From NCBI GenBank assembly GCA_964525635.1, contig CAZGJX010000071.1, positions 1 through 22,948 of the forward strand: DNA of 22,948 bases. The letters are read 5' to 3'. Each line of letters opens with the position of its first letter. Position 1 is the stretch's first letter. A program made the translations under genes and the position numbers. The notes below the pieces were generated by a model. That model saw only the letters and a list, made by a program, of their open reading frames with translations. It was not told the DNA's origin and made no database searches. Source of the DNA: an uncultured archaeon. GTDB lineage: Archaea > Asgardarchaeota > Lokiarchaeia > Sigyniarchaeales > SOKP01. Shown piece after piece: positions 3,537-21,880 of the stretch.

Positions 3537-3833
3537 TTAATATCTTCTATCCTTACCAATTATGTTTACATTAAGAGCTTCTGGTCCTTTTCCATTATTA
3601 TTATCTATTTTTACATCAAATTCAACCTCATCTCCTTGATCGAGTTTCTTAAAACCATCCATTATAACATTTGAAAAATGAACAAATATGTCTTCTTCTT
3701 GGTCATTTATGGAGATGAAGCCAAATCCTTTTTTATAGTCGAACCATTATAATTTATCTTAGAAATTAAGATAAATTTTTACCCATCCGACTTTTCTATT
3801 GCTATTATCTAATTCATTCTTTTCTTCTGTCAT
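3537..3833 (-). CDS. cspA: Cold-shock domain protein, spliced: join(3833..3777,3746..3537), 88 aa
   Basis: Manual translation: MTEEKNELDNSNRKVGWVK|WFDYKKGFGFISINDQEEDIFVHFSNVIMDGFKKLDQGDEVEFDVKIDNNNGKGPEALNVNIIGKDRRY*. RNP-1 (KGFGFI) and RNP-2 (IFVHF) are intact. A 30-nt insert splits VK|WF. Absent from the ORF track. Confidence 0.9.
3747..3776 (-). other. Putative BHB/BHL mRNA intron (30 nt) in cspA
   Basis: Sequence ATTTATCTTAATTTCTAAGATAAATTATAA with two in-frame TAA. Inner helix TTTATCTTA/TAAGATAAA (9 bp); central helix GTAA/TTAT; bulges AA^A and AA^T; exon-exon helix AGTCGGA/TTCGACT. Confidence 0.85.
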
Positions 3834-15644: not shown

Positions 15645-16188
15645 AATAAATCACCCAGTTTTAGAATATTATTTTTAAATTAGTAGTTGAAGAATAATTA
15701 TTACACTTTTATTAATAAATTTTTATTAATTATTGAATTCAAATTTATTAATTTATATATAATAAATATTTCTCATTTTATTTATTATTATTCATTAATT
15801 TTGTAACAATCTATAAAATGAAACAAGAATTGAAGCGACATAACTTAATATCCTCCTTTAAATATATGATCCTTTTATTTACTATTCCAAAACCAATACT
15901 TCAAATAAGGGTTTAAACGGAAGTACTAGATAGTTACTATCACTAGATTATAAACATCATTACTGCAGAGTAAATTTTCATCAAATCATATAGTGAATTT
16001 CACTAGTAAAAAATTTTTTTTCTATCAATGAGTAAGTTTTTTGTCGTATTAATTGTATGAATTTTATTGCTCGGATCAACCAACACATTTATATAGAACA
16101 ATTACTAATTTAATTATAAGATAATAAAAATTATCTAAAAACAATAAACAAAAAAAAAAATATTTAACAAGTGGAGGAATGAATTAAA

Positions 16189-16398
16189 ATGGGAGCATTT
16201 GCTTGGAGCCCTCTAAGGGCATTAATGAAAAAAGCTGGAGCAGAAATTGTAAGTAGAGCCGCTGTTGATAAATTAATGGACTACTTAGAAGAATATGCAA
16301 AAGAATTAACTGGATGTGCTTTAGACATTGCTAAGCACAGCGGAAGAAAGAAAGTCACTTCAGACGATATGAAGATAGCTATCGATCTAGTCATTTAA
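16189..16398 (+). CDS. Archaeal histone (HMf-like, tailless)
   Basis: PLRALMKKAGAEIVS...AKHSGRKKVTSDD histone fold; SD GGAGG upstream. Confidence 0.92.
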   Translation: MGAFAWSPLRALMKKAGAEIVSRAAVDKLMDYLEEYAKELTGCALDIAKHSGRKKVTSDDMKIAIDLVI

Positions 16399-16408
16399 GA
16401 CTTCTGCT

Positions 16409-16460
16409 CTTCTATTTTTTATTTTTTTTTTTATTTTTTATTTTATTTAATGTTTTTTGA
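16409..16460 (+). terminator. Oligo-T archaeal terminator after the histone gene
   Basis: Long T-tracts immediately downstream of the stop codon. Confidence 0.5.
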
Positions 16461-16681
16461 TTCTAACATATATATTTTTCTCTAATATATAATATTAAAT
16501 CTTTTTCGATTTGAATAAGGTTAAGATTACCTATGAGAATTATATGAATTTTAGATATCTTATTTATCAAAATAATTTCAATAAAAAAAATTTAAAAATC
16601 TCAATTTATAAATATCTGAAGTTAATTCTATTAATTAACAATAAATCTAAACTAAGTATAATATTTTTTCAATAGAATATA

Positions 16682-17101
16682 ATGCTAGATATTGTATTAA
16701 TTCAACATAATAAGACAGGTTTAAGTCTGTTTGAATATCGTCAAGAACATACTAAAATAAGTTTAGAACATTCGGATATTTTTAGTGGATTTCTTTCTGC
16801 TATACAAAATATTACACATGAATTGGATATTGGAAAAGTTAATTTAATTTCAACAGGAGGTAAAAAAGGTCATAATTGTATTATAGTTCCAAGAGATCCA
16901 ATCAATATTGTATTGCTTGTTGATCAAGAGGATTCAATTAAATTTTGGAGAGAAACTGGCAATAAAATTGCACAAGAATTTATTAAGAAATATCATAAAT
17001 CTTTTGATCCTCATAATATATCACAATTTAAGAATTTTGAATTTATTTTAAAAAAAATAGTTGATATGCATAACTATTTCACTTTTTTAGATAAAAAATG
17101 A
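16682..17101 (+). CDS. Longin-like domain protein (Asgard type)
   Basis: N-terminal beta hairpin (IVLIQHNKTGLSLFEY), helix SDIFSGFLSAIQNITHEL, three strands and C-terminal helices; pattern recognised by eye. Confidence 0.55.
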   Translation: MLDIVLIQHNKTGLSLFEYRQEHTKISLEHSDIFSGFLSAIQNITHELDIGKVNLISTGGKKGHNCIIVPRDPINIVLLVDQEDSIKFWRETGNKIAQEFIKKYHKSFDPHNISQFKNFEFILKKIVDMHNYFTFLDKK

Positions 17102-17342
17102 AAAACCATAATCTAAAATACCAATACCAATACCTATTACCAAAAGTTATAACATAATTTCATCTATATCCTACCAAAAAATTTTTATTTTTTGCCTGAT
17201 TTAAGATAATATAGTGGAGTACTCATTAACTAATTCTCTAATGTATTTCAATTTTATTTTAAAAAAAAAAAAGAAAATCAACCATGATTATAAATAAGTA
17301 TAAATTAATTCAATTAAAATTAAAAAAGGATGCCTATTTCTT

Positions 17343-20300
17343 ATGAGCTATACATTCTCAAGAACTAAATTAATAGAGAAAATTAAGTTTGGGCTTCTGA
17401 GTCCCGACGAAATCAGAAAAATGTCATCTGCAAGGATCATCACGGCAGATACATATGATGAAGATGGACTGCCGATCCCTTCCGGTTTGATGGATCAACG
17501 GTTGGGAACGATTGAGCCGGGTCAGAGATGCCAAACCTGTGGAAATCTTGTATCAAATTGTATGGGGCACTTCGGACATTAAATTTCTTTTATGAAAGCA
17601 TTTCGCTTTATTTGTCTAAATCGAGTTGGCCCGTCCAGTTATCCACGTAGGCTATTCTAAAAAAGTATTAAAAATATTGAGATCGATATGTCCAGAATGT
17701 TCAAGATTAATGCTTTCTGAAGAAGCTAAAGTAAACCTTCAAAAAGAACAACAATTACATCATAAACTCTCCTATGAAGGGGATGATGATATTACTAAAA
17801 TTGTCTTTAAAAGAGCGAGAAAAAATAAAATATGTCCTTATTGTGGTGCTAAGAAAAAAAAGATAATTTTGGAAAAACCAACTACTTTCTATGAAGAAGA
17901 AGAAGCTAAAGGCTCTCGACGATTAACACCCATAGAAATTAGAGAACGAATGAAAAAAATGATGGATGTAGATCTTCGAGTTTTAGGAATATCACCACAA
18001 AATGCAAGAATGGAATGGGTTGTTTTCACTGTTTTACCAATTCCTCCTGTATGTGCTCGACCTTCAATTACACTAGATAGTGGTATACGCTCTGAAGATG
18101 ATTTAACACATAAACTTGTAGATGTAATTCGAATTAATCAAAGATTAAGAGAAAATATAGATGCTGGAGCACCACACTTGATAGTTGAGGACTTATGGGA
18201 ACTATTACAATATCATATCACAACATACTTTGATAATCAAGTATCTGGAATCCCTCCTGCTAGACATCGCTCTGGTAGAGCATTAAGGACACTAACACAG
18301 AGATTAAAAGGAAAAGAAGGGCGTTTCAGGAGCAATCTCAGTGGAAAGCGTGTAGATTTTTCAGCTAGGAGTGTTATTTCTCCGAATCCACATATAAGTA
18401 TTAATGATGTTGGTGTTCCACAAAAAATAGCTAAAATATTAACTATTCCAACTAATGTAAATGATTGGAATATTGAACAGATGAAACAACTAGTGTTAAA
18501 TGGACCCAATAAACACCCTGGAGCGAATTATATTATTAGGAATGATAGACGAAGAATAGATCTTCGTTATGTTAAAAATAGAAAAATAATCGCAGACATG
18601 CTAGCACCAGGATTTACTGTTGAAAGACATTTAAACACTGGAGATTTAGTATTATTTAATCGACAACCATCGCTACACAGAATGTCGATTATGGCTCATG
18701 AAGTAAAAATTATGGATGGTAAAACATTTCGTTTAAATCTTACCGTATGCCCTCCTTATAATGCAGACTTCGATGGTGATGAAATGAACCTTCATGTCCC
18801 TCAAAGTGAAGAAGCAAGAACAGAAGCAGAATTATTACTAAAAGTTCAAGAACATATATTATCTCCTCGTTTTGGTGGTCCAATTTTGGGGGGAATTCAA
18901 GATTTTATATCAAGTATATTTCAATTTACGGGGTTGGATTCTTTATATGATGTTAAAGACACTTTAAAATTACTCTTTATGGGAGGAATCTTCGATTTAC
19001 ATCCCGATTTTGATTTAAAAAATATCAAACCAATCAAAACTGAACCTGAACCAATGTACTCTGGTAAACAAATTTTTAGCACACTTTTACCTAACGATTT
19101 AAATTTAAGATTGAGATCAAAATTCTGTAAAAAATGCTTTATTAAAAATGGAGAAAAATGTAAAGAAGAAAAGTGTGAATATGATGCATATGTAACAATT
19201 AAAAATGGTGAACTACTTACAGGTACCATTGATGAGAATTCATTTGGTGCAATGCAATCAAATAGTATTCTTCAAAGAATAATTAAGGACCATGGAAACG
19301 CAACGGGTAGAGAATTTTTAGATAACGCTACTAGAATGCTTCTTTATGTTATTAGACAAAATGGTATAACAATGGGACTCGATGAAGTATTTGTCAAAGG
19401 TGAAGCATTTGAACATATTCAAAAAGTATTACATGACGCAACTGATGAATCAAAACGTCTTATAAAAGCATTTAGAGAAAATGATAATAAAATCTTAAAA
19501 AGAGCACCTGGACGGTCATTAAAAGAAACTTTAGAATTACGAATTAGACAAGTTCTTGCTGAAGCGCGTAAAAAAGCAGAAGAATTAGCTTCACATTATA
19601 TTGGAGATGATGCTCACTCAGTTATTATGACTAAATCTGGAGCAAGAGGAAATATATTAAATTTAGGACAAATGTCAGCAGTTGTTGGACAACAAGCTAT
19701 CAGAGGTGAAAGGATAAATAGAGGTTATTCTTCAAGAACTCTTCCACATTTTAAAGTAGATGATTTAACACCAAAAGCTAGAGGATTTGTAGAACAATCC
19801 TATAGAAATGGACTTGAACCTGCGGGCTTCTTCTTCCATGCTATGGGCGGTAGAGAGGGCTTAGTGGACACTGCGGTAAGGACATCAACGAGCGGTTATA
19901 TGCAAAGGCGCTTAGTTAACGCTTTACAAGATATGGTTATAGAAAATGATGGAACTGTCCGCAATTCAGATAAAAACATTATTCAATTCAGATTTGGAGA
20001 TGATTCAGTAAATCCTCAACACACAGATCATGGTGCTGCCGTTAACCTAGATGTCCTATTACTTAAAGCAAAAACACTTGATTTAGAAGAAATTAAACAT
20101 AAAGGTAAGAAACCTGTAGACACCAAATCCAAAAAACCTACACCAGAAAAAGAAGCCAAACTTAAGCCTTCAACAACGGCAACTACACCTAAATCAACAA
20201 CAAAGAAACCTACACCTAAACCATCAACAAAGAAATCAACTAAAGCTCCTGATGAAGATTCATTACAAGAAAAATTTAAAGAGGAAACTGGAAAAAATGC

Positions 20301-20644: not shown

Positions 20645-21880
20645 ATGACAAAAGTTACAACTCAAATGTTGAATAGATCTTTAAAAGAATTAGAAGATGA
20701 TGGAATTCCAAAGGATTTAGTTGACAAGATCCGGAATAAAATAAAAGATGAAGATTTGGAAGAAGAACAACTTGAATACCTTCTCAATAAAGTATTTATC
20801 AATTTCAATAATGCAATTGTTGAAGCTTCTGAACCTGTAGGAACTGTAGCTGCACAATCGATTGGTGAACCTGGAACACAAATTTTATTGCAATTGGCAA
20901 TATAAGTGGAAATGACACTAAGAACCTTTCACTACGCAGGAGTGGAAGAATTCTCAGTAACTCAGGGTTTACCTCGTCTGATTGAGATAGTGGATGCACG
21001 TCGATTTCCTTCTACTCCAAACATGACAATCTTTTTGGATAAAGATCACTGTAAGGATGAGAATGAAGCAATTAAAGTTCACAATAGGATTGAACAAATT
21101 AGAATTGAACAAATTAGTTCAGAAGTGGATCTGGATTTTGTTAATTGGAATATTGTTATTAATTTAATACCTAAAATCTGTGATAAAAAGGGAATTGATA
21201 TCGAAAAGATTCCTGAGATCTTAAAACGATATAAAAAGAAAGGTTCGATAAAAAGAGAGGGAAATAAAATAATTATCGATCCTGGAATTGAAGACTTACA
21301 ACAACTTCAAAAACTGCGTGAAAAAATACTTAAAAAAGTTGTTAAAGGTATAAGAGGAGTTAAAAGAGGTTTATTAACACCTTCTGATGATGGTAATGAA
21401 TGGGTCATTAAAACAGAAGGGACAAATATGGTGGGTGTTGTTCAAATAGAAGGTGTTGATGTTACAAGAACTACCTCAAATCATATTCATGAAGTTGAAA
21501 AATTGTTTGGAATTGAGGCCGCAAGAGCTCTTATTATTGAAGAGGCTAAAAAGGTACTTGAACAACAAGGTTTAGATGTCGATTTAAGGCATTTATTAAT
21601 CCTTTCTGATTTAATGTGTGGAACGGGCGCAATTCAATCTATTGGAAGGCATGGTATTTCTGGAGCAAAATCAAGTGTGTTTGCAAGAGCTGCTTTTGAG
21701 GTTACTGTTAATCAATTACTAGATGCTGGTTTATACGGTGAAGAGGAGCGTTTACTAGGTATTCCGGAGAATGTTATAGTAGGACAGGTCTGCCCAATAG
21801 GAACTGGTCGCGTATCCATACAATTCGATTTAGATAAAAATCTAGAAATCTTAAAAGGAAGGAATATCCAAAAAAATTAA
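20645..21880 (+). CDS. rpoA2: RNA polymerase subunit Rpo1C (A''), spliced: join(20645..20881,20912..21880), 401 aa
   Basis: EPVGTVAAQSIGEPGTQ|MTLRTFHYAGV (trigger loop), VTQGLPRLIEIVDA, RAAFE, ENVIVGQ, GTG. Confidence 0.95.
20882..20911 (+). other. Putative BHB/BHL mRNA intron (30 nt) in rpoA2
   Basis: Sequence ATTTTATTGCAATTGGCAATATAAGTGGAA with an in-frame TAA. Inner stem TT/AA plus TATTGC/GCAATA; central helix ACAC/GTGG (3 of 4 paired); both bulges AA^A. Excision gives CAA ATG = Q-M. Confidence 0.85.

What the first reader, a model, noticed from the sequence alone, without database searches (positions are those of the whole stretch)
20882..20911. 30-nt intron inside the trigger-loop motif (GEPGTQ|MTL) of Rpo1C
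The insert splits one of the most conserved RNA polymerase motifs, which could hardly work as two polypeptides. It has an in-frame TAA (20903-20905), a perfect TATTGC/GCAATA stem and AA^A bulges on both sides. AAAT at both ends makes the junction ambiguous by sequence, but BHB geometry picks 20881/20912. The central helix has an A.G mismatch and the exon-exon pairing is distal (TTGGTG/CACTAA), implying a relaxed-specificity endonuclease. From memory, unverified: inteins occur in this motif in some euryarchaeal A'' subunits, which would fit a target site for parasitic elements.
Basis: partly seen in the sequence, partly recalled or inferred. Interest (0 to 1): 0.9.

Follow-up and report, generated by a model that had tools for sequence, protein, structure and literature searches.

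The report
tRNA-type mini-intron in RNA polymerase gene
The only gene for RNA polymerase subunit A'' (Rpo1C) of this Lokiarchaeon-type Asgard archaeon is broken inside its catalytic trigger helix by a 30-base insert shaped like a tRNA intron, so the message most likely has to be cut and rejoined by the tRNA-splicing enzymes, a route published so far for essentially one archaeal protein gene (cbf5).

Summary
Bases 20882-20911 are a 30-nt insert with an in-frame TAA between GEPGTQ and MTLRTFH of the single-copy Rpo1C gene. Contigs from three salt-marsh samples carry it unchanged.

About 400 other Asgard genomes and contigs that I read at this site lack it. Removing it joins Pfam profile positions 88|89 exactly.

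It folds as a relaxed bulge-helix-bulge (HBh') motif:
- a central helix ACAC/GTGG (3 bp plus A.G);
- two AA^A bulges;
- an 8-of-9-bp intron hairpin.

Only the register that cuts after the second bulge base gives the homology-defined junction (chance about 4e-3).

Two more inserts in this window, in Rpo1N and csp, have the same layout. The Rpo1N site carries inserts in four other lineages with compensating base changes. [quoted passage not shown]

I put mRNA splicing at about 0.8. No RNA data exist, so it is inferred. The main rival is a split gene.

The insert lies 1-5 bp from the homing site of a LAGLIDADG intein found in roughly 8-16% of Asgard genomes sampled.

The scan noted this kind of intron before, in other genes of this genome and in rpoA2 of other Asgard genomes. 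I found no paper reporting it.

The parts
20645..20881 (+). Rpo1C (RNA polymerase subunit A'') exon 1, 79 codons, ending ...SIGEPGTQ
   Evidence: Pfam RNA_pol_Rpb1_5, ending at profile position 88. dN/dS 0.055-0.061 against congeners.
20882..20911 (+). 30-nt insert, the putative HBh'-type BHB mini-intron
   Evidence: Absent from all orthologues read. Bridged by DNA contigs of X1, X3 and X6.
20912..21880 (+). Rpo1C exon 2, 322 codons plus stop, starting MTLRTFHYAG
   Evidence: Pfam RNA_pol_Rpb1_5, starting at profile position 89. dN/dS 0.041-0.051.
20876..20879 (+). Central helix H, 5' strand (ACAC, in exon 1)
   Evidence: Pairs with 20906-20909: C79-G06, A78-U07, C77-G08; A76.G09 mismatched.
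20906..20909 (+). Central helix H, 3' strand (GTGG, near the intron 3' end)
   Evidence: It can also pair downstream, AGUG 20905-08 with CACU 20916-19, as in the MFE fold.
20880..20882 (+). 5' bulge AA^A; predicted cut between 20881 and 20882
   Evidence: The rule 'cut between 2nd and 3rd bulge residue' is from PMC2738675. The register test is.
20910..20912 (+). 3' bulge or loop AA^A; predicted cut between 20911 and 20912
   Evidence: No adjacent exon-exon helix h, so this site lies in a loop (relaxed HBh'/BHL type).
20883..20905 (+). Intron helix h' (20883-91 with 20897-20905, 8 of 9 pairs, one U.U) and 5-nt loop AATTG; holds the in-frame TAA at 20903-05
17580..17619 (+). Sister element: 40-nt frame-shifting insert in Rpo1N between GHFGH and IELARP. 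H is GGAC/GTCT (4 bp); bulges AU^U and AA^A
   Evidence: Contigs of X2 and X6 bridge it. Inserts at the same site in G005, G016/L045 and L047, with compensating changes.
3747..3776 (-). Sister element: 30-nt insert with two TAA in a cold-shock protein gene (exons 3833-3777 and 3746-3537), between GWVK and WFDYKKGFGFI
   Evidence: H GUAA/UUAU 4 bp, h' 9 bp, bulges AA^A and AA^U.

Best explanation
Bases 20882-20911 are an archaeal endonuclease-type (bulge-helix-bulge) mini-intron in the pre-mRNA of rpoA2/Rpo1C.

Proposed mechanism:
- In the transcript, the last exon-1 bases ACAC pair with GUGG near the 3' end of the insert.
- The insert's own hairpin stacks on this helix.
- Both splice sites are then presented as AA^A, giving a relaxed HBh' motif.
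- The (alpha-beta)2 splicing endonuclease cuts after the second A on each side (20881|20882 and 20911|20912).
- RtcB joins CAA to AUG.
- The mRNA then encodes an uninterrupted 401-aa subunit with the normal trigger helix ...GEPGTQMTLRTFH....

Shown: the insert, its exact boundaries, its fold-compatible layout, its absence from orthologues, the enzymes, and sister introns with covariation.

Inferred: that cutting and ligation happen on this RNA.

The insert arose after this species split from its sampled congeners.
For: 1. Precise insertion. All other Rpo1C genes that I read at the site are either contiguous GEPGTQ|MTLRTF or carry an intein. These are 30 relatives, 57 genome loci, 42 metagenome loci, about 150 listed matches of a 400-genome phylum sample and 81 genomes of a second class. 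The two ORFs abut at Pfam profile positions 88|89.

2. The gene is essential and under selection. It is single copy in a genome 100% complete. dN/dS is about 0.05 in both exons, with dS 1.1-1.4.

3. BHB register. H is 3/4, h' is 8/9 and both bulges are AA^A only at the register that yields the homology junction. P is about 8e-4 per register and about 4e-3 overall. The cut rule comes from the cbf5 work (PMC2738675).

4. Same architecture elsewhere, where readthrough or re-initiation cannot work. Rpo1N has a 40-nt frame-shifting insert bounded by TAA on both sides. csp would be left with a 19-aa first piece and has two TAA.

5. Covariation at the Rpo1N site. H is GGAC/GUCU in G000 and L047, GGGC/GCCC in G005 and GGGC/GUCU in G016. 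The h' stems differ completely in sequence but all pair.

6. Enzymes. EndA alpha keeps Y/H/K and has a KPR loop aligned to the A. pernix CSL. The paralogue has Y->F and H->A. RtcB is present. Asgard EndA is reported as (alpha-beta)2 with the L1 loop (PMC5829648). Enzymes of that type cut relaxed motifs (PMC6379350).

7. The insert is real DNA in several samples.
Against: - No RNA or peptide evidence. No RNA run holds the locus.
- The insert is in one species only, so it has no covariation of its own.
- H has only 3 Watson-Crick pairs plus A.G, the weakest of the seven inserts compared.
- There is no exon-exon helix next to H, so the 3' site lies in a loop.
- The unconstrained MFE fold does not form H. 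It is -13.9 kcal/mol, against -10.6 kcal/mol when the BHB is enforced, because GUGG can pair downstream. The z-score of the region is only -1.1.
- TAA is followed directly by GTG and, two codons on, by ATG, so termination and re-initiation is conceivable.
- A genome-wide de novo BHB plus ORF-merging scan gave no enrichment over decoys.
Confidence: 0.8

Rival explanations
1. The gene is naturally split. Translation stops at TAA 20903-05 and restarts at GTG 20906 or ATG 20912. That would give an 86-aa N-terminal piece (with an extra ILLQLAI tail) and a 322/324-aa C-terminal piece, which assemble into the polymerase without any RNA splicing.
For: The stop and the possible starts are adjacent (TAAGTGGAAATG). 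Public annotation already calls two ORFs of 86 and 322 aa. RNA polymerase large subunits are split at other points in archaea (A'/A'', established knowledge). Shine-Dalgarno motifs are rare in this window (3 of 17 starts), so the lack of one is not an argument against a restart.
Against: The break would fall inside the trigger helix, between Q and M. None of about 400 other Asgard genomes and contigs read at the site is broken there by anything except an intein, which restores a single chain. The insert has the exact BHB register. The same design in Rpo1N leaves only a TTG start that would delete two invariant residues. In csp it would leave a 19-aa fragment.
Confidence: 0.1
2. Ribosomes deal with the insert. 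They either bypass it (hopping as in T4 gene 60 or the mitochondrial 'byp' elements) or read through the TAA, which would leave 10 extra residues in the trigger helix.
For: The size (30 nt) and the hairpin resemble bypass elements (my knowledge of gene 60 and of the Magnusiomyces byps, not tested here). The insert is in frame.
Against: Take-off and landing codons do not match in any of the six inserts compared: CAA vs GAA here; CAT/CAC vs TAA or CAA at the Rpo1N site; AAA vs TAA in csp. The Rpo1N insert is 40 nt long and shifts the frame, so readthrough cannot rescue it. What is conserved instead is the rule 'AA at the 3' end plus 4 nt complementary to exon positions -6 to -3', which is the BHB rule. 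Ten extra residues between Q and M of the trigger helix are seen in no homologue.
Confidence: 0.03
3. The gene copy is non-functional: a recent disabling insertion, or a bin or strain artefact with the working copy not assembled.
For: The insert is species-specific and has a stop codon. The genome is a 245-contig MAG with 3% contamination.
Against: There is only one Rpo1C and one Rpo1N match in a genome scored 100% complete. Both would have to be dead at once. The rest of both exons is intact and under strong purifying selection. The insert is present in contigs of three samples, and no insert-free contig of this organism was seen. No full-length protein more than 92% identical exists in the 5.8-billion-protein collection.
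Confidence: 0.05

Closest known systems
BHB intron in the cbf5 (aCBF5 pseudouridine synthase) pre-mRNA of Crenarchaeota (Watanabe 2002; Yoshinari 2006; Yokobori 2009, PMC2738675)
   Same: [quoted passage not shown] It has a BHB-like, often relaxed, motif and predicted cuts between the 2nd and 3rd bulge residues. The host has a hetero-oligomeric (alpha-beta)2 EndA. Gain and loss among relatives is patchy.
   Different: A different phylum (Asgard/Promethearchaeota) and a different gene (a catalytic RNA polymerase subunit, inside the trigger helix). This insert is only 30 nt and is confined to one species. It is one of several such introns in the same genome. Splicing of cbf5 was shown by cDNA and in vitro cleavage; here it is inferred.
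Non-canonical tRNA introns of Asgard and TACK archaea (HBh'/hBH/BHL motifs; PMC6379350, PMC5829648, bioRxiv 10.64898/2026.10.13.758758)
   Same: The same motif grammar: a 4-bp H, 3-nt bulges and an intron hairpin. The presumed enzymes (EndA with L1/CSL loop, RtcB) and the size class are also the same.
   Different: The host RNA is an mRNA with no tRNA body to help recognition. The exon strand of the motif is constrained by codons for invariant residues.
RpoA'' (Rpo1C) intein with LAGLIDADG endonuclease at GEPGTQM^TLRTF
   Same: It occupies the same few base pairs of the same gene (1-5 bp away). It is also a removable insertion in the trigger helix. It is present in relatives.
   Different: The intein is about 528 aa, in frame and removed at the protein level. 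It has Hint and LAGLIDADG domains. The 30-nt insert has a stop codon, no coding capacity and no sequence similarity to the intein ends.
Unconventional cytoplasmic splicing of HAC1/XBP1 mRNA (IRE1 cut, RtcB or Trl1 ligation) in eukaryotes
   Same: A protein-coding message is cut at two stem-loop sites by a non-spliceosomal endonuclease and sealed by a tRNA ligase (my knowledge, not tested here).
   Different: The endonuclease is different (IRE1, not EndA/TSEN). That splicing has a regulatory role under stress. Nothing here indicates regulation.

Membership tests
Archaeal BHB (EndA-dependent) intron | A 4-bp central helix H between the exon-1 end and the intron 3' end | tested here: met
   ACAC/GUGG gives 3 pairs plus A.G. 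This is a relaxed form, weaker than the 4/4 seen in the six sister inserts.
Archaeal BHB (EndA-dependent) intron | Two 3-nt bulges, with cuts between the 2nd and 3rd residue that reproduce the exon junction | tested here: met
   AA^A on both sides. Only register 0 of the five equivalent ones fits, and it gives 20881|20912, which equals Pfam positions 88|89. The rule is from PMC2738675.
Archaeal BHB (EndA-dependent) intron | Outer helices h (exon-exon) and h' (intron) flanking the bulges | tested here: inconclusive
   h' is present (8/9 bp). An adjacent h is absent; there is only a distal 7-bp exon-exon helix. This makes it an HBh'/BHL relaxed motif, which broad-specificity EndAs accept (PMC6379350).
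Archaeal BHB (EndA-dependent) intron | The host encodes a splicing endonuclease able to cut relaxed motifs, and an RtcB ligase | tested here: met
   An alpha subunit (Y, H, K kept; CSL-like loop), a beta subunit (Y->F, H->A) and RtcB.
Archaeal BHB (EndA-dependent) intron | Spliced RNA and an excised (circular) intron detectable | not testable with these tools
   No RNA run holds the locus. Only DNA contigs could be laid.
Intein | An in-frame ORF with Hint splicing blocks, Ser/Cys at position 1 and His-Asn at the end | tested here: not met
   The insert is 30 nt with a TAA. True inteins at this site are 528 aa with Intein_splicing and LAGLIDADG_3 domains.
Translational bypass element (gene 60 / byp type) | Matching take-off and landing codons flanking the gap | tested here: not met
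   CAA vs GAA here. There is no match in any sister insert either.
Group I / group II intron | A ribozyme core of hundreds of nucleotides | tested here: not met
   The insert is 30 nt. There is no Rfam match in the window.
RNA polymerase subunit A'' (Rpo1C) | An RNA_pol_Rpb1_5 domain with the trigger-helix motif GEPGTQMTLRTFH | tested here: met
   Pfam PF04998 on both exons, E 1e-7 and 4e-37. 92% identity to congeners.

The most novel reading that the evidence does not exclude
The position of the mini-intron may not be accidental. It sits 1-5 bp from the insertion point of a LAGLIDADG intein that circulates in Asgard rpoA2 genes, and it is flanked by a 4-nt direct repeat (AAAT).

Two readings follow:
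- It protects the allele by splitting the homing-endonuclease target. That would be an RNA-level intron acting as a 'vaccine' against a protein-level parasite.
- It was created when a staggered endonuclease break at this site was repaired with filler DNA, and survived because the filler happened to be spliceable.

Either reading would link intein homing to the birth of archaeal mRNA introns. It would also help explain why these mini-introns sit in invariant motifs.
Probability: 0.12. Interest if true: 0.85.

Novelty: new member of a known kind. Interest (0 to 1): 0.72.

Why it matters
If this reading is right, an Asgard archaeon cannot make either large RNA polymerase subunit without first splicing their messages with the tRNA-splicing enzymes. 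In the papers I could search, endonuclease-type introns in archaeal protein genes are documented essentially for cbf5 of Crenarchaeota. None reports them in Asgard archaea, the closest prokaryotic relatives of eukaryotes.

This case is a recent, species-specific gain in an invariant catalytic motif. It shows that such introns are still being acquired.

It also gives a clean substrate for biochemistry: an 80-nt transcript, two recombinant EndA subunits and RtcB.

Its coincidence with an intein homing site offers a way to test how the introns arise.

Practically, standard annotation splits the gene into 86-aa and 322-aa ORFs. Such genes are therefore miscalled in public Asgard genomes.

Tried and rejected
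- RNA evidence: no RNA holder is listed for the locus. Only DNA contigs could be laid.
- De novo genome-wide scan (H 4/4, h'>=4, L 18-70, plus ORF merging): no enrichment over shifted-partner decoys, e.g. 1569 vs 1579-1617 hits, and 11 vs 6-11 with stricter filters. Adjacent genes with intergenic hairpins dominate, so the scan says nothing either way. An earlier version timed out.
- Source of the insert: blastn-short against the genome gave only a 22/24-nt match inside a membrane-protein ORF (C106:283-306, E 0.015). I take it as chance.
- Larger, endonuclease-encoding intron at the site: none was found; only inteins.
- Insert-free allele or spliced-form protein of this species: none above 92% identity in the protein collection.
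- A 322-aa relative (P0020) looked like a second interrupted gene. It is a scaffold gap of Ns, and its junction is contiguous.
- Aragorn tRNA introns as a register control: the calls were too unreliable for multi-intron Asgard tRNAs, so I used the literature rule instead.
- '1 TAA' flags in G001, G003 and G005: not internal stops. tblastn shows contiguous genes.
- Thermodynamic folding alone does not single out the BHB.
- Shine-Dalgarno analysis does not discriminate between splicing and re-initiation.

Full report
**What is there.** The window comes from a 4.45-Mb, 245-contig genome scored 100% complete. Its RNA polymerase genes are 92% identical to those of MAGs labelled Promethearchaeota/Lokiarchaeota. 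ORF 20645-20905 encodes 79 residues of Rpo1C, ending SIGEPGTQ, followed by ILLQLAI and TAA. The same frame continues VE-MTLRTFHYAG... to 21880. The extra 30 nt are 20882-20911. Pfam RNA_pol_Rpb1_5 matches the first piece up to profile position 88 and the second from position 89, so the insert adds nothing and removes nothing. Public annotation calls two proteins, of 86 and 322 aa.

**Real DNA, single copy, under selection.** Logan contigs of runs X1, X3 and X6 cross the insert with no difference or gap. X2 and X6 cross the Rpo1N insert. X1 may be the source sample, and all runs are salt-marsh metagenomes of 2019. The genome has one Rpo1C and one Rpo1N match. Against three congeners, dN/dS is 0.055-0.061 for exon 1 and 0.041-0.051 for exon 2, with dS 1.1-1.4.

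**Distribution.** The junction GEPGTQ|MTLRTF is contiguous in the following samples:
- 24 of the relatives read;
- 53 of 57 resolved genome-collection loci;
- all 42 resolved metagenome loci;
- every one of about 150 listed matches of a 400-genome phylum sample except G000, the only row flagged '1 TAA';
- 68 of 81 genomes of a second Asgard class.

All remaining cases that I opened carry an in-frame insert of about 1.6 kb, GEPGTQM^S...HN^TLRTF, with Intein_splicing and LAGLIDADG_3 domains. Such half-matches occur in about 28 of 372 genomes of the phylum sample and in 13 of 81 of the other class. The mini-insert is therefore specific to this species. It lies 1-5 bp from a widely used intein homing site. 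The range reflects AAAT being present at both insert ends.

**Anatomy.** I applied the BHB grammar: on each strand, 4 nt of helix H, then a 3-nt bulge, cut between bulge residues 2 and 3 (PMC2738675).
- Exon bases ACAC (20876-79) pair with GUGG (20906-09): three pairs plus A76.G09.
- Both bulges are AA^A.
- Helix h' runs 20883-91 with 20897-20905, 8 of 9 pairs, around the loop AAUUG.

Of the five cut registers that give the same mRNA, only 20881|20912 has this geometry. Neighbouring shifts score H 0-2 and h' 2-5. Across the genome, H>=3/4 with h'>=8/9 at L=30 occurs at 8e-4 per position, so about 4e-3 after allowing five registers. No exon-exon helix adjoins H, which makes the motif the relaxed HBh'/BHL type. 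A distal 7-bp exon-exon helix can close it. Free-energy folding does not favour the BHB: -13.9 kcal/mol for the MFE against -10.6 kcal/mol with the BHB enforced, because GUGG can pair downstream.

**Sister elements.**
- The Rpo1N gene in the same operon has a 40-nt insert, 17580-17619, between GHFGH and IELARP. It starts and ends with TAA and shifts the frame. H is GGAC/GUCU, and the bulges are AU^U and AA^A.
- A cold-shock gene on the minus strand has a 30-nt insert, 3747-3776, with two TAA. H is GUAA/UUAU, and h' is a 9-bp stem.
- At the Rpo1N site, 30-nt inserts occur in G005, G016 (the same sequence as L045) and L047. G015 has a 50-nt insert 5 nt downstream.
- Across these, H is GGGC/GCCC, GGGC/GUCU, GGAC/GUCU and UAUA/UAUA respectively.
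- The 30-nt inserts of G005, G016 and L047 have unrelated h' sequences that nevertheless pair (6-9 bp). The G015 insert has no clear h' in this register. All of them end in AA.
- A-U to G-C exchanges in H, and wholesale covariation in h', are what a structure-dependent excision predicts.
- My de novo scan also picked up a 30-nt insert at C109:3066-3095 (minus strand). It splits the DKHS|TGG motif of a nucleoside-phosphorylase-like ORF, with H UAGC/GCUA and a 9-bp h'.

**Enzymes.** One EndA paralogue (C18, 202 aa) is closest to the catalytic subunit of the Aeropyrum pernix heterotetramer (3p1z_B, E 4e-37). It keeps the Tyr, His and Lys, and has KPR aligned to the crenarchaeal-specific loop. The other (C105, 204 aa) has Phe and Ala at the first two catalytic positions. 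RtcB is present. The literature states that Asgard EndAs are (alpha-beta)2 with the L1/CSL insert. It also states that only enzymes with such loops cut relaxed motifs efficiently (PMC5829648; PMC6379350).

**Rivals.**
- A split gene cannot be excluded for this insert alone, because TAA is followed by GTG and ATG, and Shine-Dalgarno motifs are rare here. It would, however, break the trigger helix. It would be unique among about 400 genomes and contigs read at the site. And it does not explain the BHB register or the sister inserts.
- Bypass is disfavoured, because take-off and landing codons never match.
- Readthrough cannot rescue the 40-nt insert.
- A dead gene is unlikely, given single copy, two interrupted essential genes and strong constraint.

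I put splicing at 0.8.

**Comparison and novelty.** The mechanism is that of the cbf5 pre-mRNA intron of Crenarchaeota. Full-text searches found no report of such introns in Asgard protein genes. A 2026 preprint treats only Asgard tRNA introns. Earlier notes of this scan, which are AI notes and not independent evidence, list similar mini-introns in other genes of this genome and in rpoA2 of other Asgard genomes. I verified only those in this window and at the Rpo1N site. In my samples no other genome has one at this Rpo1C site.

**Speculation.** All the mini-introns I saw lie in invariant motifs, as inteins do. Survivorship could explain this, since imprecise loss would be lethal there. A link to homing-endonuclease breaks is another possibility. 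The 4-nt AAAT repeat and the intein site a few bases away fit that idea but do not show it.

Noticed in passing
window 17580-17619 (+); L095, L099/L045, L047, L107: A 40-nt frame-shifting BHB-type insert in Rpo1N between GHFGH and IELARP. Four other lineages have 30-50-nt inserts at or 5 nt from the same site. Their H helices show compensating changes and their hairpin sequences are unrelated. About 25 relatives are contiguous.
   Followed up: yes
window 3747-3776 (-), gene 3833-3537: A 30-nt insert with two TAA splits a cold-shock-domain gene between GWVK and WFDYKKGFGFI. It forms a canonical BHB (H GUAA/UUAU, 9-bp hairpin). No ORF is listed there by the ORF finder.
   Followed up: partly
L013, L017, L027, L043, L075, L082, L084, L200-L219: An intein of about 528 aa (Ser1...His-Asn/Thr, Intein_splicing and LAGLIDADG_3) sits at GEPGTQM^TLRTF of Rpo1C. 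It occurs in about 28 of 372 Asgard genomes of one sample and 13 of 81 of another class, across many families.
   Followed up: partly
G000 contig C109:3066-3095 (-): My de novo scan found a further 30-nt insert (H UAGC/GCUA, 9-bp hairpin, AA at the 3' end). It splits the ...YDKHS|TGGVPG... motif of a 523-codon nucleoside-phosphorylase-like ORF, with 186 codons upstream and 337 downstream.
   Followed up: partly
G000 contig C106:283-306 (-): 22 of 24 nt are identical to the core of the Rpo1C insert, inside the 3' end of a membrane-protein ORF (...LIAIGIISV...). E is 0.015. It is probably chance but could be a filler source.
   Followed up: no
G000, one contig (name not printed by aragorn), positions about 19098-26273: A cluster of 22 tRNA genes, 20 of them without introns, within about 7 kb. 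The other tRNA genes of the genome are scattered and many carry introns. It could be a mobile-element or viral tRNA array, or contamination.
   Followed up: no
window 16183-17626: Rpo1N is not preceded by rpoH/rpoB. Upstream lie an archaeal histone gene (16189-16398) and an unassigned 139-aa ORF (16682-17101).
   Followed up: no
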